A DNA stretch of 64,000 bases from Methanotrichaceae archaeon. Lineage in GTDB: Archaea; Halobacteriota; Methanosarcinia; Methanotrichales; Methanotrichaceae. Position 1 is the first letter of the stretch. Each line of letters opens with the position of its first letter. The DNA is taken from assembly GCA_963803145.1 (NCBI GenBank), contig CAWDLW010000023.1, forward strand, positions 128,001 through 192,000, written 5' to 3'. The position numbers and the translations under genes were made by a program. Below, piece after piece: positions 51,880-63,716 of this stretch. The notes under the pieces are model-generated. The model was not told where the DNA came from. It was given only the letters and a program-made list of their open reading frames with translations, and searched no databases.

Positions 51880-54813
51880 ATGCAGGAGAAGATAATTTCT
51901 TCACTGACACCTATCTTAATGATGCGTGTTGTTGCGCATGCTCTCATCTTGTTAGCTTTGCTTATGGGTTTGCTGGCTTGGATAATCGGCATACGTAGTA
52001 TTGGAGACCTTCAGGAATTCATGAATGATCTCAGTGGCATCATGCTTTCCTTTATAACAATTATTATAGTGCTGCTTATCCTCTTTTTCTTATCAATATT
52101 TTTTATTAATATGTTTAAGGAAGAGGGCATAGTGATTCTGCCTTTTGAGACTAGTTCCGTTGGAGATAATAAATACAATGGTAAAGCAATCTCTGATCTG
52201 CTCACTGCTGAACTCCATAGGATTAAGCAAATTCGAAAATATAGATATGAGCAATTACATTCATCCGGACTAGAAAAGCCAACGTATCTCAATCCTGTTC
52301 CTCCAAGGTATATATTGCACAATGGAATGACTCTAAGTTCTTTTAAGCCGGTTCCTCAAACAGAAACGCTATATTATAGCACACCTCTGGATTTCCCCGA
52401 GCTAATTCCTCAAACGGAGGCTCTTAGTTACACACTAGACAAGATAAGCTCAATCGGTGTAGGTTCAAATGCTATCTCTATCGGTCAGCTACTTATAGCT
52501 TTCAAGAGAATGTGTCCGGGATGTAATCCAGGGCGAGTCATTACTGGTAGCATGCAGGCATACGGATCAGTAATCCGTTTAGTTGCCTGCTTAGAACATC
52601 GTGAAATTTATACTTGGGAAGTTAATCGTAAAATCAAAGAAGAGCAGGTATCCGACTTAGTCCGAGATTTAGCTTTCAAGATCGCTTATGATCTAGCAAA
52701 GGAAGAAAATCCACAAAATAATCAAGCTAATACATGGAAAGGATTCAAATATTATACCGAATCGCTACAAAGTTACTATCAATATACGCTTACAGGGAAG
52801 AAAAAGGCTCTAGAGAGCGCTAGAAAAAACTGCATCAACGCAGGAAACTTTGAGCCTGGCTACAAAGAGCCCCTTGAACTACTTGGTATATTAGGGTTCG
52901 CATATATTAACGAAAACAAATATGATATGGCCGAGCAGTTATTTTGTAACATAGCATCAGTCAAACCAGACATTAGCAATTTTGGCATGGGTATTCTATA
53001 TCGAAAACAGAAATATTATGATAAGGCTCTAGATCGATTTGAGAAAGTTATACAATTGTGTCCGCAAAATGTCCAGGCTTGGACTTATAAAGGCAGTATT
53101 CTAGGTAGTCTCGGCAGGCACAAAGAGTCACTCCAGGCTTCTAACAGGGCTATTGAATTGGATTCAGACAGCTCGAATTCAATAGCTTGGGCCAATAAAG
53201 GTAGTGCTCTGTTTAATCTTGGAAGGCATGAGGAAGCGTTACAGGCCTTTAATAAAGCCATCGAACTAGACCCAAATAATGCATTTGCTTGGGCTAATAA
53301 AGGTGCTGCCCTATCTAACCTTGGCAAGCATGAAGAATCACTACAAGTCTTTGATAAGGCTTTCGAACTTGGTTTCAATAGTGCAATTATATGGACCAAC
53401 AAAGGCAGTGCTATGTCTTATCTTGGAAGGCATGAAGAAGCATTACAGGCATTCGATAAGGCCATCAAGCTGGATTCCAAAGATGCAATTGCCTGGATTA
53501 ATAGAGGTAGTGCTCTGCTTAATTTGGGCAGATATGAAGAAGCACTACAAGCTTCTGAAAAGGCTACTGAGTTAGATCCAAATAATGCAATTGCCTGGGC
53601 AAATAGAGGTGGTGTTCTGTCTAATCTTGACAGGTATGAAGAAGCACTCCAAGCCTTTGATAAGGCAACGGAACTGGATTCCAAAGATGCAATTGCCTGG
53701 GCAAGCAAAGGTATTGCTCTGTCTAAGCTTGAGAGGCATGAAGAAGCATTGCAAGCGTTCGATAGAGCTACCGAACTGAATTCCAACGATATAATTGCGT
53801 GGATCAACAAAGGCAGTGCTTTGTTTAATTTGGGCAGGTATGAGGATGCGTTAAAAGCTTCCGAAAAGGCTACTGAGCTAGACCCGAATAATGCAATTGC
53901 CTGGGCCAACAAAAGCGGTTCTTTATATGAACTGGGTAGGTTTACAGAATCGCTACTAGCCGCTGAAAAGGCAATCGAACTGGATCCAAGCGATGCTGAA
54001 GCATGGATCGGCAAAAGCGGTGCTCTACTTAATCTGGATAGGAATGAAGAGGCATTGCAAGCTTCCGAAAAGGCCGCCAGCCTTGGTCCAAATGATATAA
54101 GGGTTTGGCGCAATAAAGGGAGTGCTCTGCTTAAATTAAGCAGATATGAAGATGCACTAAAGGCCTTTGATAGGGCTGTTGAGCTAAATATAAATGATGC
54201 CGAAGCATGGGTCAGCAAAAGTAGTGCTTTGGGAAACCTGAAGAGGTATGAAGAAGCATTTCAGGCTTCTGAAAAGGCCATTATGCTGGATCCAAATAAT
54301 GCAAAGGCTTGGGGCAATAAAGGCAATGCGTTGTTTTACCTACGCAGATATGAAGAGTCCATATTGGCTTCTGAAAGGGCCATCGAACTTAATGCAAACG
54401 ATGCCAATGCATGGATCAACAAAGGCAATGCTCTGTTTAATCTTGAGAGGCGTGAAGAAGCATTACAAGCATTCGATAGGGCTACCGAACTGAATTCCAA
54501 CAATATGGTTGCGTGGATCAACAAAGGTAGTATTCTGCTTACCTTTGGTAGATATGAAGAAGCACTACAAGCTTCTGAAAAGGCCGCCGAACTAGATCCA
54601 AATAATGCAATTGCCTGGACCAATAAGGGTGATGCCTTGTATAATCTTGGCAGATATGAAGAAGCATTACAGGCCCTTGATAGAGCCACCGAATTGGACC
54701 CAAAAAATGCAAAGGCCTGGGAAAATAAAGGCTTTATTCTTAAATATCTTGGCCGTTATGTCGAAGCAAATGTAGCTTCCGCACAAGCCTGGGCATTGGG
54801 GTATATTAACTAG
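51880..54813 (+). CDS. Membrane-anchored protein with long TPR array
   Basis: Two N-terminal TM helices, VILPFE domain, about 17 near-identical TPR units (AWxNKGxALxxLGRxEEAL). Confidence 0.92.
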   Translation: MQEKIISSLTPILMMRVVAHALILLALLMGLLAWIIGIRSIGDLQEFMNDLSGIMLSFITIIIVLLILFFLSIFFINMFKEEGIVILPFETSSVGDNKYNGKAISDLLTAELHRIKQIRKYRYEQLHSSGLEKPTYLNPVPPRYILHNGMTLSSFKPVPQTETLYYSTPLDFPELIPQTEALSYTLDKISSIGVGSNAISIGQLLIAFKRMCPGCNPGRVITGSMQAYGSVIRLVACLEHREIYTWEVNRKIKEEQVSDLVRDLAFKIAYDLAKEENPQNNQANTWKGFKYYTESLQSYYQYTLTGKKKALESARKNCINAGNFEPGYKEPLELLGILGFAYINENKYDMAEQLFCNIASVKPDISNFGMGILYRKQKYYDKALDRFEKVIQLCPQNVQAWTYKGSILGSLGRHKESLQASNRAIELDSDSSNSIAWANKGSALFNLGRHEEALQAFNKAIELDPNNAFAWANKGAALSNLGKHEESLQVFDKAFELGFNSAIIWTNKGSAMSYLGRHEEALQAFDKAIKLDSKDAIAWINRGSALLNLGRYEEALQASEKATELDPNNAIAWANRGGVLSNLDRYEEALQAFDKATELDSKDAIAWASKGIALSKLERHEEALQAFDRATELNSNDIIAWINKGSALFNLGRYEDALKASEKATELDPNNAIAWANKSGSLYELGRFTESLLAAEKAIELDPSDAEAWIGKSGALLNLDRNEEALQASEKAASLGPNDIRVWRNKGSALLKLSRYEDALKAFDRAVELNINDAEAWVSKSSALGNLKRYEEAFQASEKAIMLDPNNAKAWGNKGNALFYLRRYEESILASERAIELNANDANAWINKGNALFNLERREEALQAFDRATELNSNNMVAWINKGSILLTFGRYEEALQASEKAAELDPNNAIAWTNKGDALYNLGRYEEALQALDRATELDPKNAKAWENKGFILKYLGRYVEANVASAQAWALGYIN

Positions 54814-56836: not shown

Positions 56837-57481
56837 GTGGGATTGAGTCGGGGGACTCTAATTGTGTTCATGCTAGCCATAGCGCTAGCTAATTCAGCTT
56901 TGGCTGCAGACCATGTCATCGATAGGACGGTGATAAAAGGCGTAGGGTACCTAAGCCATGAGCTCTTCGGCCAGACAGCCATAGGCGGAGGCCAGAGTAT
57001 TGCTGAGCGCATATCGGGCTCAGGGAGCTTTTACGATAAGACCGACTTCGAGATGGATGCAGTAGCGAACACAATAAACTACTCTCAGGATGCCGAGTTT
57101 GAGTATTTCCCGACAAGCTATCAGACAGGCACTTATGATCAGAAATGGACGGACAAACTCACTGTGATCAACCGTGATGCAGGAGCTGCAGTCACTGAGG
57201 ATTATACAAATGCCGAGCATATTGAGAAGAGCACCGATGTCATGACCAGCGGAAACGTTACGAACAACGCTTTGGAGATGCGCATCAACTCAAATGTGAT
57301 AGGCGTGGCACATATCGGCGGGGTCTCGAAGGATACTAAGCAGAGCGAAAAAGGCAGATATGTGGAGATCGGCAAGAGTTCAGAGGATCTTACGGGAACG
57401 TTCTCCGTAGAGAAGTATATCGAGCTGCTGCAGAACTCAACGGATTCTGAGGCACAGGTGGATATGCTGCCCTGTGCATGA
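56837..57481 (+). CDS. Secreted hypothetical protein (paralog of 10803..11786)
   Basis: Signal peptide, GVGY, SGSG, GTFSVEK...MLPC. Confidence 0.8.
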   Translation: MGLSRGTLIVFMLAIALANSALAADHVIDRTVIKGVGYLSHELFGQTAIGGGQSIAERISGSGSFYDKTDFEMDAVANTINYSQDAEFEYFPTSYQTGTYDQKWTDKLTVINRDAGAAVTEDYTNAEHIEKSTDVMTSGNVTNNALEMRINSNVIGVAHIGGVSKDTKQSEKGRYVEIGKSSEDLTGTFSVEKYIELLQNSTDSEAQVDMLPCA

Positions 57482-57837: not shown

Positions 57838-59559
57838 ATGACAAATACGGACCTCCATACTGATAATGTTGTTCCTTATGTAAACCTGCTAGAAAAATCA
57901 CCCACCGGCATAAAGGGCCTGGATGAGATTACAGATGGCGGTCTTCCCAAAGGCCGTCCAACACTTGTTTGCGGGAGTGCAGGCTCGGGAAAGACGCTCC
58001 TTTCAATGCAGTTTCTTGCGCAAGGAGTATTGTTGTATGACGAGCCCGGAGTATTCGTCGCATTCGAGGAGACACCTGATGAACTTACAAAGAATTTCAG
58101 CTCACTGGGCTTCGATCTCAGGAAGCTTCAGGAGACGAATAAGATCCTCATCGATTACATCTACATCGATTCAAGCGAGATCGAGGAGACGGGCGATTAC
58201 GACCTCGAAGGGCTGTTCATCCGCTTAGGAAGCGCAATCGACTCTATCGGAGCAAAACGGGTGGTCTTAGATACAATCGAGGTCCTCTTTTCAGGATTCC
58301 GTAACACTGCTATTCTGCGCTCAGAGCTGCAAAGGCTTTTCCGGTGGCTGAAGAGCAAAGGAGTCACAGCTATTGTTACTGGCGAGAAGGGTGAGAAAAC
58401 TTTAACCAGGTATGGCCTTGAAGAGTATGTCGCAGATTGTGTTATAATCCTTGATAACCGTATGGATAACCAGATCGCCACCCGAAGGATGCGTATAATC
58501 AAGTATCGCGGCTCTTCGCATGGCACAAACGAATTTCCCTTCCTGATAGAAGATGACGGCATCTCTGTTTTGCCAATAACATCCATTGGCCTCGAACATA
58601 TCGCTACCACCGAGAGGATATCATCAGGCATTGAGAGGCTCGATACAATGCTTAGCGGCCAGGGATTCTTCCGGGGAAGCAGCATCCTTCTCACTGGAAC
58701 GGCAGGCACAGGCAAAAGCAGCTTTGCGGCCCATTTCGTCGATGCGGCGTGCCGCCGCGGCGAGCGCTGCATCTACTTCGCCTTCGAGGAATCGCCAAGC
58801 CAGATCTGCCGCAATATGAGTTCGATCGGCATCAATCTCACCCAATGGATGGATGCGGGTCTACTGCATATCTTCTCAGGACGGCCGATGGCACACGGCC
58901 TGGAGATGCACCTGCTGGATATGCGCAGGCTGATCGATGAAGTCCAGCCAAATGTTGTGGTCATCGATCCAACATCGAACCTGGTGAGCGTAGGGACCTC
59001 AAACGATGTGAGGTTCATGCTTACAAGGCTGATAGATTACCTCAAGATAATGGGTATAACATCTTTTTGCACCAGCCTGATAGAGGATGAGACAACTGGG
59101 CATACAGCCGAGAGCGTCTCATCCCTGATGGATACCTGGATATGGCTGCGTATGTTTGATAACGGAAATGAAAGAAACCGCGGAATCACGATAGTTAAAT
59201 CGAGAGGCATGGAGCACTCCAACCAGACACGCGAGTACCAAATTACTGATGAAGGCGTGAAGATACTGGACGTCTACCTCGGCCCGAAGGGAGGACTGGT
59301 TATGGGAACTGAGCGCATTGCTCAGGAGTCAAAGGAGAATGCAGATGCTATTATGAACGATCAGGAGACCCTGAAAAGAAGAAGAGCACTTGAGAACAAG
59401 CTCAACTCCCTGAAGGCTCAGATGGATATGCTCCGCCTGGAATGCGAGACCAGCGAGGATGAGCTAAGTAAGCTCCTATCGGAGGATGAGCTTCGAAGTA
59501 AGGCCATGGCGAACGGCAGAAGAGAGATAGCCAAGCTCAGAAGGGCCGATTCATTTTAA
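57838..59559 (+). CDS. kaiC: Double-domain KaiC with C-terminal coiled-coil extension
   Basis: GSAGSGKT/FEE (CI), GTAGTGKS/FEE (CII), KYRGS, phosphosite loop VSSLMDTW, KSRGM.HSN. Confidence 0.96.
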   Translation: MTNTDLHTDNVVPYVNLLEKSPTGIKGLDEITDGGLPKGRPTLVCGSAGSGKTLLSMQFLAQGVLLYDEPGVFVAFEETPDELTKNFSSLGFDLRKLQETNKILIDYIYIDSSEIEETGDYDLEGLFIRLGSAIDSIGAKRVVLDTIEVLFSGFRNTAILRSELQRLFRWLKSKGVTAIVTGEKGEKTLTRYGLEEYVADCVIILDNRMDNQIATRRMRIIKYRGSSHGTNEFPFLIEDDGISVLPITSIGLEHIATTERISSGIERLDTMLSGQGFFRGSSILLTGTAGTGKSSFAAHFVDAACRRGERCIYFAFEESPSQICRNMSSIGINLTQWMDAGLLHIFSGRPMAHGLEMHLLDMRRLIDEVQPNVVVIDPTSNLVSVGTSNDVRFMLTRLIDYLKIMGITSFCTSLIEDETTGHTAESVSSLMDTWIWLRMFDNGNERNRGITIVKSRGMEHSNQTREYQITDEGVKILDVYLGPKGGLVMGTERIAQESKENADAIMNDQETLKRRRALENKLNSLKAQMDMLRLECETSEDELSKLLSEDELRSKAMANGRREIAKLRRADSF

Positions 59560-59587
59560 AATTGAGTGGATATAATGGAACAATCAG

Positions 59588-59914
59588 ATGAAAGCGCTGA
59601 CAGTAGAAATGGAGCCTTCCGACTATCTGCAGGACGATGAGATCTATATCCTGCGGCTCTATGTGGCAGGCCAGACCAGGAAGAGCCTGGCAGCCTTCGC
59701 CAACCTCAAGAGGATATGTGAGGAGCATCTGAAGGGCAAGTACAGAATCGAGGTCGTCGATCTTCTGGAGCATCCTCAGCTCGCGAAGGGCGACCAGATT
59801 CTGGCTATTCCTACGCTTGTCCGGAGGCTTCCTCCGCCTGTCAGAAAGATCATAGGCGATCTCTCGAACACCGAGAGAGTGCTGATAGGTCTCGACTTGC
59901 GCCCTGCGAAATAA
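59588..59914 (+). CDS. kaiB: KaiB (copy 1, canonical)
   Basis: [36 protein letters not shown]. Confidence 0.96.
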
Positions 59915-59936
59915 GGGTGGTTCAAGATGATATGCA

Positions 59937-60275
59937 ATGGTTGAATCAAATAGATCAATAGAAAAGGTTGAAAAAGCCCTGAAGAGCAAAGGCACCGATG
60001 TATTTGTTTTGCATCTCTACGTAGCGAATATGAATTTCAAGTCTGTTCAGGCCATCAAGAACATCAACGATATATGTGAGGAGAACATCCCTGGGCGGTA
60101 CCAGCTCGATATAATCGATATCTGCCAGCAGCCGATCCTCGCCAGAGAAAACCAGATCATAGCGGCACCAACCCTAATTAAAGAGACTCCTCTGCCTCTT
60201 AGAAGGCTTGTAGGAAATATGTCCGATACAGAGCGTGTGCTGACAGGTCTTGGCCTGCACTCCAAAACAAACTGA
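59937..60275 (+). CDS. kaiB: KaiB (copy 2, divergent)
   Basis: LHLYVANM, IIAAPTLIKETPLPLRRLVGNMS, VLTGLGL. Confidence 0.92.
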   Translation: MVESNRSIEKVEKALKSKGTDVFVLHLYVANMNFKSVQAIKNINDICEENIPGRYQLDIIDICQQPILARENQIIAAPTLIKETPLPLRRLVGNMSDTERVLTGLGLHSKTN

Positions 60276-60280
60276 ATACC

Positions 60281-60673
60281 GTGGTACGAATTGGTGATGC
60301 GATGGGGAATGACGATAATAGAGAGAACGGTGATTCGATAGAGACTGATGCTTATGAAAGCTTCGAGAAAGCTCTGGAGAGAATGGGCACTGAGAAGTAC
60401 GTCCTGCGTCTCTATGTTGCCGGTATGGGTCCAATGTCCATCCAGGCAATTGAGAATATCAAAAAGATCTGCGAGGAGAATATGCCTGGGCGATATCAGC
60501 TCGATATAATCGATATCTATCAGCAGCCTATCTTCGCCAGGGAAGGTCAGATTGTAGCAGCACCAACCCTCATCAAGGAGCTTCCGCCACCCATATCGAA
60601 GCTGGTTGGGAGCATGTCTGACAAAAAGCGTGTCCTCGTTGGCTTGGATCTGCATATCGGAAAACAAGAATGA
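60281..60673 (+). CDS. kaiB: KaiB (copy 3); start may be ATG 60302
   Basis: LRLYVAGM, IVAAPTLIKELPPPISKLVGSMS, VLVGLDL. Confidence 0.92.
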   Translation: MVRIGDAMGNDDNRENGDSIETDAYESFEKALERMGTEKYVLRLYVAGMGPMSIQAIENIKKICEENMPGRYQLDIIDIYQQPIFAREGQIVAAPTLIKELPPPISKLVGSMSDKKRVLVGLDLHIGKQE

Positions 60674-60728
60674 TTTATATCCAGGCAGGAGATAAAACTC
60701 AAGAAACCCGTTAAGATGAGGCAGCATT

Positions 60729-63716
60729 ATGGCTAAATCTAACGAAGAGCTTGTAGCTGAGAACGAAGAGCTGCGTAGAAATTTAGATGAATCTCAAGAG
60801 CTTCTGCGAGCCATAACAGGTGGTGAGGTAGATGCTCTGGTCGTCTCTGGATCGCAAGGTGAGCAGGTTTTCACTCTCGAAGGGGCAGATCGCGCCTACC
60901 GTATTCTCATTGAGGCCATGAACGATGGCGCAGTCACCATGACCTCAGACGGAACTATTCTCTACTGCAACCGCCATTTTGCAGATATGACGAAGTCGCC
61001 TCTGGAAAAAGTGATAGGCTCATCCATCTACCGTTTCATCCCACAGTCTGATCAGGCATCATTCAGAGTTCTTCAGCAGGGCCTCGGCAGGGGTGAACTG
61101 ACTCTTCAAGCTGAAGATGAAAGCATAATGCCTGTTTATATCTCCATTAATTCCATCCAGCTTTCAGAATCCCAGGAAGCTTTTTGCGTTGTTTTCACCG
61201 ACCTGACAGAGCAGAAGCGAAAAGAAGAGATTGTTGCTGCAGAGAAGCTGGCTCGTTCCATCATCGAGCAGACGGCTGAGGCAGTCATAGTCTGCGATGA
61301 GAGAGGAAAGGTCATCCGTTTCAGCAATGCTGTACTCAGGATCTTGGGCTGTGATCCATCGCTCCAGAGTTTTGAGGACTTATTCGACCTGCGGATCCCG
61401 GTCGGCAAGAAGCTATATCCTATCTCGTCGGCTCTGGGAGGTGATGTTCTACTGCAGGTCGAGGCAAGTCTTAAGCGAAGTGACGGCATGCTGTTTCACT
61501 TGCTCCTGAACGCCGGACCTCTGAAGAGTACGAATGGCAGGATCATAGGCTGCGTGATCACCCTTACGGACATCACCGAGCGTAAGCGGATGGAGGATGC
61601 CCTACAGGATAAGCAGGAAGAACTCGAAGTACAGGCCGAGGAACTTGTTGCCCAGAACGAAGAGCTGCGCGTCAATAACGACGACCTCTCAGAGACGACC
61701 AGAATGCTGCAAGAGAGCGAAGCGCGCTTTCGAGCAACCTTTGAGCAGGCAGCAGTCGGCATTGAAATGCTGAATCTTGATGGCCAATTCTTGCGAGGCA
61801 ATGGAAGGCTGGGTGAACTACTGGGCTATAGCCAAAAGGAGCTACAGTGTCTCAACTTCGCCGATATCACCTACCCTGATGATCTTGTCCGAGAGCTGCC
61901 GTTGCTGGAAGACCTACTGGCCAGGCGAATCGGTCACTATACTATTGAGAAGCGTTACCTGCGCAAGGATGGCCAGGGCGTATGGGTGCGCGTTACATCA
62001 TCGCTTGCTAATGTTAAAGAGCCATATCGGATCTCGGTTATCGAAGATATCACAGAGCGCAAGCAAGCCGAGGAGGCGCTAGAGAGGCTACTGAAAGAAG
62101 TCGAGGCACAGCGTGCCAGGTTGCAGGCGATCCTCGACGCCCTGCCTGTTGGTGTAACGATCGCCGATGCTACAGGCAGCATCCTTGTGAACAACGATGC
62201 ATTACGCAAGATTTGGGGCGGTAAGGCGCCGTTATCTAAGTGTGTTGAGGAATATGCGGAATATAAGGGCTGGTGGGCAGATACTGGAAGGCCTATCAAA
62301 CCTGAGGATTGGGGGCTGGCACGTGCCATTAAAAATAGCGAGACAAGCGTGGGCGAGGTCATAGATATACAGCGTTTCGATGGCACACGCGGCACAATAC
62401 TCAGCTCGGCTGCCCCCGTCAAAGACGCCAGCGGGACCATCATCGGCGCCGTAGTCATCCAGCAGGACATCACAGAGCGCAAGCAGATGGAAGAGGAGCT
62501 GCAAAAAGCCCGTGATGAGCTGGAACAGAGGGTCACTGAGAGGACTGCAGATCTGACAAAAGCCAAGGAAGCCGCCGAGGCTGCAGTCGAGGCCAAAGCT
62601 GCGTTCCTTGCGAATATGAGCCATGAGCTTAGGACACCCCTGAATGCAGTGATTGGTTTCTCCAGCCTTCTCCTTGCTGATAATCTCACACCGGATCAGA
62701 AGGAGGACATTGAGAGAATCAGGAAGGGTGGTGAAGCTCTCCTATCAATCATAAGCGATATCCTTGAATTTTCGAGAGCTGAAAAGGAGAAAGTAACACT
62801 AGAGCTTCAGCCTCTCAGCCTCAAGCGCTGCATCGAAGAATCTCTTGATATGGTTGCAGTGCAGGCCATCGATAAGGGCCTGAACCTGGCTTATACCGTC
62901 GCTTACGGCACACCGGATACAATCATTGGTGATCCTGGAATGCTTCGTCAGATTTTGGCTAATTTGCTTTCCAACGCTGTCAAGTTTACCGATAAGGGGG
63001 ATATATCAATATCCATTTCCTCCAAAATCATCGAGGGTAATGAGCGCCAGATAACTTTTGTAGTCAAGGATACGGGCATCGGCATGCCCCATGATAAGAT
63101 GGACAGGCTCTTCAAGCCCTTTACACAGCTTGAGTACACCCTAAGCCGTAAACGTGATGGCGCAGGACTCGGACTCGCCATATCCAAGAAGCTCGTAGAA
63201 CTTATGGGTGGAGAGATCTGGGCCAAAAGTGAGGAAGGCAGAGGTTCGACCTTCTGGTTCACTATTCCCGTAGAGACTCTCCCAGGAAAGCAATTGGACT
63301 TAGAGGAGAAGGATATAGCTGAGTATGAGAACCTCTCGAGCCAAAAGCCTCTGGCAATTCTTGTAGCCGAAGATAACCCTTCAAACCAGAAGGTACTCGT
63401 CGAGATGCTGAAACGCCTAGGCTATAGGCCCGATGCCGTGGCAGATGGCGTTGAGGTTCTGCAGGCCCTCCAAATCCGGTCATACGACCTGATCTTCATG
63501 GATATCAAGATGCCTGAGATGGATGGCCTTACCGCTGCCAGGGAGATACGAAAGCTCTGGCCTGAAAATGGTCCGAAGGTAGTGGCCATCACAGCTTTCG
63601 CAATGGATGGCGATCAAGAGAAGTGTCTTGAAGCAGGAATGGATGGATATATCGCAAAGCCTGTGAAAGTGGATGATCTCGCAACGCTACTACGCAATAT
63701 TAACCACACAGAATAA
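60729..63716 (+). CDS. Cytoplasmic multi-PAS hybrid histidine kinase/response regulator
   Basis: 4 PAS/PAC (DITERK), H-box MSHELRTPLN, N-box NLLSNAVKFT, DTGIG, GAGLGL, REC (AEDN, FMDIKMP, AKP); no TM. Confidence 0.95.
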   Translation: MAKSNEELVAENEELRRNLDESQELLRAITGGEVDALVVSGSQGEQVFTLEGADRAYRILIEAMNDGAVTMTSDGTILYCNRHFADMTKSPLEKVIGSSIYRFIPQSDQASFRVLQQGLGRGELTLQAEDESIMPVYISINSIQLSESQEAFCVVFTDLTEQKRKEEIVAAEKLARSIIEQTAEAVIVCDERGKVIRFSNAVLRILGCDPSLQSFEDLFDLRIPVGKKLYPISSALGGDVLLQVEASLKRSDGMLFHLLLNAGPLKSTNGRIIGCVITLTDITERKRMEDALQDKQEELEVQAEELVAQNEELRVNNDDLSETTRMLQESEARFRATFEQAAVGIEMLNLDGQFLRGNGRLGELLGYSQKELQCLNFADITYPDDLVRELPLLEDLLARRIGHYTIEKRYLRKDGQGVWVRVTSSLANVKEPYRISVIEDITERKQAEEALERLLKEVEAQRARLQAILDALPVGVTIADATGSILVNNDALRKIWGGKAPLSKCVEEYAEYKGWWADTGRPIKPEDWGLARAIKNSETSVGEVIDIQRFDGTRGTILSSAAPVKDASGTIIGAVVIQQDITERKQMEEELQKARDELEQRVTERTADLTKAKEAAEAAVEAKAAFLANMSHELRTPLNAVIGFSSLLLADNLTPDQKEDIERIRKGGEALLSIISDILEFSRAEKEKVTLELQPLSLKRCIEESLDMVAVQAIDKGLNLAYTVAYGTPDTIIGDPGMLRQILANLLSNAVKFTDKGDISISISSKIIEGNERQITFVVKDTGIGMPHDKMDRLFKPFTQLEYTLSRKRDGAGLGLAISKKLVELMGGEIWAKSEEGRGSTFWFTIPVETLPGKQLDLEEKDIAEYENLSSQKPLAILVAEDNPSNQKVLVEMLKRLGYRPDAVADGVEVLQALQIRSYDLIFMDIKMPEMDGLTAAREIRKLWPENGPKVVAITAFAMDGDQEKCLEAGMDGYIAKPVKVDDLATLLRNINHTE

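What the first reader, a model, noticed from the sequence alone, without database searches (positions are those of the whole stretch)
57838..63716. Archaeal kaiC-kaiB-kaiB-kaiB-hybrid kinase operon: candidate KaiA-less timer wired to its own output kinase
Seen: five tightly spaced co-oriented genes. KaiC has both P-loops, both catalytic EE pairs, an SS phosphosite loop (VSSLMDT, versus ST in Synechococcus KaiC) and an ~80-aa coiled-coil tail; it is followed by three kaiB copies and a soluble 4-PAS HK-REC. No kaiA is in the window. Established: Rhodobacter sphaeroides KaiC has SS sites and a coiled-coil tail and works with KaiB as a KaiA-independent, ATP/ADP-driven timer; most archaeal KaiC-like ATPases have no KaiB. 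kaiBC-kinase operons are known genomically in bacteria and some methanogens, so the novelty is the three-KaiB layout and its unknown function. Inference: an energy-state timer or switch in a dark anaerobe.
Basis: partly seen in the sequence, partly recalled or inferred. Interest (0 to 1): 0.85.

Follow-up and report, generated by a model that had tools for sequence, protein, structure and literature searches.

The report
Methanogen KaiBC switch with tagged kinase
A methane-making archaeon carries three copies of a known bacterial-type clock-protein cassette; its third KaiB is a recent duplicate, and the kinase begins with an unnamed tag found almost only beside kaiB genes, which may be the missing output link of such timers.

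Summary
The five genes are real and intact. KaiC is a Rhodobacter-type KaiC2 (SS sites, coiled-coil tail), and no kaiA was found in the genome. The host is a Methanotrichaceae MAG holding three paralogous copies of the operon. The usual layout is kaiC-kaiB(A)-kaiB(B)-kinase (72 of 91 operons). The middle kaiB is a lineage-specific, faster-evolving duplicate of type B, so three KaiBs is a local variant. kaiC-kaiB-PAS-kinase operons are in print. The more useful feature is a ~55-residue helix-plus-hairpin module before the kinase's first PAS domain. It lies within 400 bp downstream of kaiB in 70 of 74 metagenome loci and 25 of 30 archaeal loci. It marks exactly the 3 kai-linked kinases among 37 kinase-like ORFs here. 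It is also on the R. sphaeroides kinase, sits on varied outputs, and is fused to a KaiB in one single-contig archaeal genome. Best reading: an ATP/ADP-sensing switch, with type-B KaiB as an adaptor to the kinase ('split SasA'). Binding is not shown; the complex prediction could not be run. This scan already noted the module on other DNA and the cassette on another contig of this genome.

The parts
57838..59559 (+). kaiC, KaiC2 subgroup, 573 aa; SS phosphosites S428/S429; C-terminal helical tail
59588..59914 (+). kaiB type A (groups with R. sphaeroides KaiB; 84% mean column identity across 60 paired operons); inferred KaiC-CI binder
59937..60275 (+). kaiB type B' (middle): lineage-specific, faster-evolving duplicate of type B; dN/dS 0.16-0.33 between the three paralogues
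60281..60673 (+). kaiB type B, with an N-terminal helical extension; the class that directly precedes the module-bearing output gene
60756..60914 (+). Kai-linked N-terminal module of the kinase (residues ~10-62): long helix plus beta-hairpin before PAS1; Pfam hits begin only at residue 57
60729..63716 (+). soluble hybrid histidine kinase: module, 4 PAS, HisKA (H632), HATPase, REC (D925); no Hpt or DNA-binding domain hit

Best explanation
A KaiC2-KaiB nucleotide-state switch wired to its own hybrid kinase. (1) Inferred from R. sphaeroides: KaiC autophosphorylates S428/S429 without KaiA, and binds fold-switched type-A KaiB on its CI ring when ADP-loaded, so its state follows the ATP/ADP ratio. 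(2) Shown here genomically: the gene after kaiB carries a dedicated N-terminal helix-hairpin module, and the type-B KaiB travels with it. (3) Inferred, my commitment: type-B KaiB is an adaptor, like the KaiB-like head of SasA but encoded separately, linking KaiC's state to the module, which tunes the kinase dimer through PAS1. The other three PAS domains add further inputs, and the phosphate passes to the kinase's own REC and then to unknown partners. (4) The middle KaiB is a diverged second adaptor kept under purifying selection, probably tuning rather than essential. Rough odds by step: (1) 0.8; Kai state controls the kinase through the module 0.65; KaiB rather than KaiC is the direct partner 0.5.
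For: Step 1: motif, site and tail conservation against 8DBA/8FWI; KaiB-RS binds ADP-bound KaiC-RS and binding falls with ATP/ADP (PMC10076222, passages). Step 2: kaiB lies within 400 bp upstream of the module in 70 of 74 metagenome loci and 25 of 30 archaeal loci, and directly upstream in 5 of 5 plasmid hits inspected of 13, including C. sphaeroides 2.4.1. In this genome 3 of 37 kinase-like ORFs carry it, exactly the three after kaiB. In a 401-genome phylum sample all 22 genomes with the module (E<=1e-6) are among the 32 with a full-length KaiB, and none of the other 369 has it at that level. The module heads HisKA, HisKA_2, HisKA_3, HWE kinase, sigma-54 activator and HD-domain proteins. Step 3: an in-frame KaiB-module-PAS-kinase fusion in single-contig genome G343 (L157) and apparent fusions P0150, P0156, P0159. 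55 of 60 type-B versus 22 of 60 type-A KaiBs match the SasA model, and only the type-B profile finds the SasA head in PDB. Module distances track type B (partial r 0.34) more than type A (0.05) (weak, kin not independent). Step 4.
Against: No binding, activity or expression data. 4 operons, including R. sphaeroides, have the module with type A only, and 9 have a single B-like KaiB, so neither class is indispensable. In one archaeal family, the kinases examined after kaiC2-kaiB(A) begin with a REC domain instead (8 proteins), so the module is not required for KaiC2 operons. 3 of 74 metagenome loci have no kaiB upstream, and 5 of 30 archaeal loci lack an adjacent kaiB. Type B is far closer to KaiB (E~1e-34) than to SasA (E~1e-5). 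Three of the fusion-like proteins look like frameshift artefacts (P0125, P0130, P0135), so the other metagenome fusions may be too. Only 18 of 105 family genomes have KaiB over the cut-off and several copies are broken, so the cassette is accessory.
Confidence: 0.45

Rival explanations
1. The module (or PAS1) binds KaiC directly; the extra KaiBs only modulate KaiC or compete for the CI ring.
For: In P. putida, which has no KaiB, KaiC co-precipitates with its neighbouring kinase and the N-terminal PAS domain is sufficient (bioRxiv 10.1101/2022.01.26.477890, section 21). The module occurs with either KaiB class alone. The same linkage data apply, since kaiB and kaiC travel together.
Against: The fusions join the module to KaiB; no KaiC-module fusion was searched for. 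Extra kaiB-module units without their own kaiC follow some operons (L022, L085, L093).
Confidence: 0.25
2. The kinase is an input: its PAS domains sense redox or ligands and the module acts on KaiB/KaiC to reset them.
For: An input role for the PAS kinase beside kaiBC in purple bacteria is suggested in PMC10931921 (passage). The kinase has four PAS domains.
Against: The same module heads sigma-54 activators and HD-domain enzymes, which are outputs by nature.
Confidence: 0.1
3. No physical coupling: the module is a dimerisation element of one PAS-protein lineage that hitch-hikes with a mobile kai cassette; the role is general stress signalling and the third KaiB is a neutral duplicate.
For: Patchy distribution and broken copies; archaeal KaiC2s fall in several separate clades among metagenome sequences; the same-genus genome G001 has a truncated type-B gene; kai operons are linked to stress fitness in Legionella and Pseudomonas (cited in PMC11372060).
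Against: The module is kept while everything behind PAS1-2 is swapped, its hairpin residues are among the most conserved of the region, and dN/dS of the middle KaiB is 0.16-0.33.
Confidence: 0.14
4. A self-sustained oscillator in which the extra KaiB classes supply the delayed feedback that KaiA sequestration provides in cyanobacteria.
For: Two ancient KaiB classes are kept side by side in most operons.
Against: No KaiA; the closest studied system is an hourglass without temperature compensation (PMC10076222); no obvious daily cue for a methanogen (inference).
Confidence: 0.05

Closest known systems
Rhodobacter (Cereibacter) sphaeroides KaiBC hourglass (PDB 8DBA, 8FWI, 8FWJ; PMC10076222) and its kaiC-kaiB-PAS/HWE-kinase operon
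   Same: KaiC2 with SS sites and helical tail, type-A KaiB, no KaiA, downstream PAS kinase that carries the same N-terminal module (34% identity over residues 10-162).
   Different: Two additional type-B KaiBs, a HisKA-REC hybrid rather than an HWE kinase, three operon copies, non-phototrophic archaeal host. 'histidine kinase' has 0 occurrences in the main text of that paper.
Rhodopseudomonas palustris kaiC-kaiB-PAS kinase operon (PMC4794148)
   Same: Same gene order, SS-type sites, longer C-terminus (passages).
   Different: Single kaiB drawn; light-driven metabolism; whether its kinase has the module was not tested.
'Orange group' kaiC-kaiB clusters followed by a kinase or GGDEF/EAL gene (PMC3164672)
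   Same: Describes this genomic arrangement generally (passages).
   Different: Its defined N-terminal consensus (RtaNt) belongs to the KaiB-less group; two KaiB classes are not described in the passages seen. Its Fig. S6 legend mentions an N-terminal region on a hybrid kinase; the figure could not be seen.
Cyanobacterial SasA
   Same: KaiB-like domain coupled to a kinase; type-B KaiBs match the SasA model more often.
   Different: Here the KaiB-like part is a separate gene that remains much closer to KaiB, and PAS domains and a REC are present.
Pseudomonas KaiC-kinase pairs (bioRxiv 10.1101/2022.01.26.477890)
   Same: KaiC beside a kinase; direct interaction shown there.
   Different: No KaiB in those genomes (section 17).

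Membership tests
KaiC2/KaiB (Rhodobacter-type) | Two RecA-like domains with Walker A and catalytic EE pairs | tested here: met
KaiC2/KaiB (Rhodobacter-type) | SS phosphosite pair | tested here: met
   S428/S429 align to the Glu-substituted pair of 8FWI
KaiC2/KaiB (Rhodobacter-type) | C-terminal coiled-coil extension | tested here: met
   aligns to 8DBA through residue 553; best heptad register 55% hydrophobic versus 24-38% in the others
KaiC2/KaiB (Rhodobacter-type) | Adjacent kaiB of the KaiB-RS class and no kaiA | tested here: met
   first KaiB groups with KaiB-RS (98 SH-like support); PF07688 0 matches; no KaiA3-specific model was searched
KaiC2/KaiB (Rhodobacter-type) | Dodecamer, KaiA-independent autokinase, ATP/ADP-driven dephosphorylation | not testable with these tools
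   needs purified proteins
KaiC2/KaiB (Rhodobacter-type) | Daily resetting by a day-night ATP/ADP swing | not testable with these tools
   host is a methanogen-family archaeon; cue unknown
Cyanobacterial KaiABC oscillator | KaiA present | tested here: not met
Cyanobacterial KaiABC oscillator | KaiC1-type sequence with ST sites | tested here: not met
   SS sites; TIGR02655 357 bits versus cut-off 546
SasA | KaiB-like domain fused to a kinase | tested here: not met
   separate genes; PRK09303 scores 24-30 (KaiB2/3) and 136 (kinase) versus cut-off 342; a fused form exists in G343
SasA | KaiB-like part binds KaiC-CI and activates the kinase | not tested
   complex prediction could not be run
Archaeal single-domain KaiC-like ATPases | One ATPase domain, no KaiB | tested here: not met
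   two domains; TIGR03877/03880/03881 below cut-off

The most novel reading that the evidence does not exclude
KaiA-less KaiBC2 systems across bacteria and methanogens have a general, undescribed output route: a second KaiB class acts as a free SasA-like adaptor that docks on a conserved helix-hairpin tag, putting any fused enzyme (kinase, sigma-54 activator, HD-domain enzyme) under KaiC control. In this methanogen two adaptor variants and three KaiC-kinase sets form a small energy-state signalling network.
Probability: 0.33. Interest if true: 0.75.

Novelty: new variant of a known kind. Interest (0 to 1): 0.45.

Why it matters
How the Rhodobacter-type KaiBC timer passes its state to the cell is open: PMC5520375 (passage) concludes that non-cyanobacterial systems must use a different output path from SasA-RpaA. 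The module names a ~55-residue target, present on the R. sphaeroides kinase itself, that can be tested with proteins already purified in that system. The archaeal operon adds a non-phototrophic test case for what KaiC2 senses. The three-KaiB layout by itself is a minor local duplication.

Tried and rejected
Complex prediction of the module dimer with type-B KaiB was never obtained (queue full or no answer); no verdict. Folding a natural KaiB-module-PAS fusion (P0150, mostly unpaired alignment with about 6 misaligned residues per module row) gave pTM 0.48 and hairpin pLDDT 54-58, no better than the module alone (59-66); uninformative on binding. The idea that the hairpin mimics the KaiC B-loop came from a visual resemblance; profile-profile alignment found nothing (probability 0.4%), so it is rejected as homology. 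Foldseek on the module model returned only generic PAS/LOV domains in the rows shown. The profile search of 1.84 billion proteins was dominated by the PAS part, so its counts do not size the module family. ESM Atlas: nearest clusters were unnamed hypothetical proteins (0.97, 0.91, 0.90). Sigma-70 promoter and terminator scans were at chance level and do not suit archaea. No RNA holder listed. The first KaiC tree did not finish and was redone with FastTree; no root or clade test, so no donor is claimed. 'Three KaiBs as a conserved design' rejected (3 of 91, one genome). 'Contamination explains the three operons' is unlikely: two lie on one 565-kb contig and the three KaiCs form one clade, although the MAG has 6.8% contamination. 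I first took the kinases after divergent (37-41%) KaiCs as module-free controls; they carry a weakly similar N-terminus (14, 9 and 5 bits), so they are not clean controls. Makarova 2017 (mBio) and a PNAS survey recalled as Dvornyk 2003 were not held.

Full report
OBSERVATION. The five ORFs are at the stated coordinates, co-oriented, with gaps of 28, 22, 5 and 55 bp. KaiC has both Walker A motifs, both EE pairs and both arginine-finger motifs. It passes NCBIfam PRK09302 but not the cyanobacterial TIGR02655 cut-off. Its best structural relative by sequence is R. sphaeroides KaiC (8DBA, E 3e-179), aligned through the tail, with S428/S429 on the two phosphosite positions. The three KaiBs pass Pfam. 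The kinase is soluble, with four PAS stretches, HisKA, HATPase and REC, catalytic residues intact. KaiA was not found in the 99.3%-complete genome.

HOST AND COPY NUMBER. The closest named records carrying the kinase N-terminus are Methanothrix/Methanotrichaceae MAGs, and a same-family handle's locus shows the same genes at the same identities as one of them. The genome holds three kaiC-kaiB-kaiB-kaiB-kinase operons (C23:185838-191716, C8:102559-109161, C8:425414-430829), 83-88% identical in DNA over their kai parts. Their KaiCs form one clade (99 SH-like support), sister to the same-genus genome, inside a 100-support group of Methanotrichaceae and a sister family of the same class (FastTree, 82 rows, midpoint root only). 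KaiB over the Pfam cut-off occurs in 18 of 105 family genomes; several of those operons are frameshifted.

THE THREE KAIBS. They are not equivalent. In a tree of 136 rows the first KaiBs of all paired operons group with R. sphaeroides KaiB (type A, 98 support); the last KaiBs lie outside that group (type B; its backbone is poorly resolved on 90 columns). The middle copies form a long-branched 100-support clade inside a 99-support group of type-B sequences from this class. The middle copy has six residues seen in none of 60 type-B sequences, at positions that are 82-100% conserved, and dN/dS of 0.16-0.33 between paralogues, against 0.06-0.21 for type A and 0.10-0.14 for type B. Of 91 operons in which kaiC and the module gene were both visible, 72 were C-A-B, 9 C-B, 4 C-A, 3 C-A-A-B and 3 C-A-B-B, the last all from this genome. 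That tally was made by hand: known duplicate loci were dropped, broken genes were counted, one A-A-B case is fragmentary, and the typing profiles were built from overlapping sequences. So the three-KaiB layout is a recent local duplication of the widespread two-class layout.

THE KINASE'S FRONT END. Residues ~10-62 precede the first Pfam hit and are predicted as a long helix plus a beta-hairpin leading into PAS1 (hairpin pLDDT ~60). Among 345 relatives of residues 1-170 (120 listed), the C-terminal outputs include HisKA-REC, HisKA_2, HisKA_3, sigma-54 activator and HD domains; plasmid hits add HWE kinases. Invariant residues concentrate in the pre-PAS part. Linkage tests follow. Metagenomes: the best 80 of 562 confirmed matches gave 79 loci; 5 with under 250 bp upstream were dropped; 70 of 74 have kaiB within 400 bp upstream, one at 562 bp, three none. 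Archaea: 30 loci from 32 matches, 25 with adjacent kaiB; of the five without, three are second copies within about 3 kb of a kai operon, one is elsewhere in a kai-bearing genome and one is a borderline hit (E 8e-4). At genome level all 22 module-bearing genomes (E<=1e-6) are among the 32 of 401 with a full-length KaiB (kin are not independent). Own genome: 3 of 37 kinase-like ORFs, exactly those after kaiB. Plasmids: 5 of 5 inspected among 13 hits, including the C. sphaeroides 2.4.1 kaiC-kaiB-HWE kinase operon. The converse is not universal: ten KaiB-bearing genomes lack the module; in eight, from one family, the downstream kinases examined start with REC.

WHICH PARTNER. A single-contig archaeal genome (G343) has an in-frame KaiB-module-PAS-PAS-kinase gene away from its main kai operon; three metagenome proteins look similar, and three others look like frameshift artefacts. 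Type-B KaiBs match the SasA model more often than type A (55 versus 22 of 60) and only their profile retrieves the SasA head from PDB, though both are much closer to KaiB. Module distances correlate more with type B than type A after partialling (0.34 versus 0.05), which is weak evidence. The 'split SasA' wording comes from an earlier scan note on another copy in this genome; these tests are mine. No binding evidence exists: the complex prediction was not obtained and the fusion fold was uninformative.

MECHANISM. Shown: anatomy, paralogy, two KaiB classes, module-kaiB linkage. From the literature: KaiC-RS autophosphorylates without KaiA, forms a coiled-coil dodecamer, binds KaiB in the ADP state and behaves as an ATP/ADP-reset hourglass (PMC10076222, passages). 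Inferred: the same chemistry here reports energy charge; type-B KaiB relays KaiC's state to the module; the kinase integrates this with its other PAS inputs. The final target is unknown: the kinase ends in REC, no Hpt was detected, and no regulator lies in the operon. Rivals are direct KaiC-kinase binding as in Pseudomonas, an input role, mere hitch-hiking, and a true oscillator.

PRIOR KNOWLEDGE. kaiC-kaiB-PAS/kinase operons are described for R. palustris and R. sphaeroides (PMC4794148, passages), R. rubrum (PMC10931921, passages) and generally (PMC3164672, passages). KaiB2-like genes in a few archaeal genera are noted in PMC5520375 (passages), and hybrid kinases as typical of Methanothrix in PMC5847659 (passages). 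Also seen as passages: PMC11372060, PMC11665890, PMC4858521, bioRxiv 10.64898/2026.04.01.715469; bioRxiv 10.1101/2022.01.26.477890 as abstract and two sections. Five full-text searches, read as listings plus those passages, showed no description of the module, of two KaiB classes in these operons or of a methanogen Kai system studied experimentally. The library lacks most subscription papers, two key surveys were not held and no supplements were read; the Pitsawong tree datasets and PMC3164672 Fig. S6 could bear on this. Earlier AI notes of this scan report the same module on other DNA and this cassette on another contig; they are leads, not independent support.

VERDICT. Real and intact; a new variant of a known kind. 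The testable value lies in the Kai-linked module and the second KaiB class as a candidate output route. Interest 0.45.

Noticed in passing
window 60830-61580 versus L041 (G000:C8 kinase, 102559-106245): About 700 bp of the two kinase genes are 99-100% identical while the operons average 87%, then diverge abruptly after PAS2: recent gene conversion or domain shuffling, or an assembly collapse.
   Followed up: partly
window 63952 onward (G000:C23:191952-195101): A second co-oriented PAS hybrid kinase (1049 aa) starts 235 bp after the operon; it lacks the module. Another hybrid kinase and a split transposase-like gene (IS630-like by recalled motif) lie upstream of the C8:109161 copy.
   Followed up: no
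L014:4384-7146, L025:2221-4521, L027:5426-8746: A second, divergent kaiC (37-41%)-kaiB-kinase operon type in Methanotrichaceae whose kinases begin with a weakly similar helix-plus-VD motif (5-14 bits), possibly a second subfamily of the module.
   Followed up: partly
L160-L162, L165, L167-L170 (family f13): kaiC2-kaiB followed by REC-PAS-kinase genes without the module; some REC domains score low and may be pseudo-receivers, a possible alternative Kai docking domain.
   Followed up: no
L157:5574-7604 (G343): Stand-alone in-frame KaiB-module-PAS-PAS-HisKA kinase, a SasA-like architecture in an archaeon.
   Followed up: partly
L173, L174 (G227, G193), L172 (G208): A second module-bearing gene sits divergently upstream of kaiC or in tandem behind the first, so one Kai set may serve two outputs.
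   Followed up: no
whole genome G000: 37 kinase-like ORFs, nearly all hybrid, and 17 REC-only ORFs, far more than the 8 kinases reported for Methanothrix soehngenii in PMC5847659.
   Followed up: no
window 51880-54813: 977-aa protein with an N-terminal hydrophobic segment and a long TPR array.
   Followed up: no
window 56837-57481: 214-aa protein with a signal-peptide-like start and no Pfam match just upstream of kaiC; a similar-looking ORF lies at C8:419643-420095 near the third operon.
   Followed up: no
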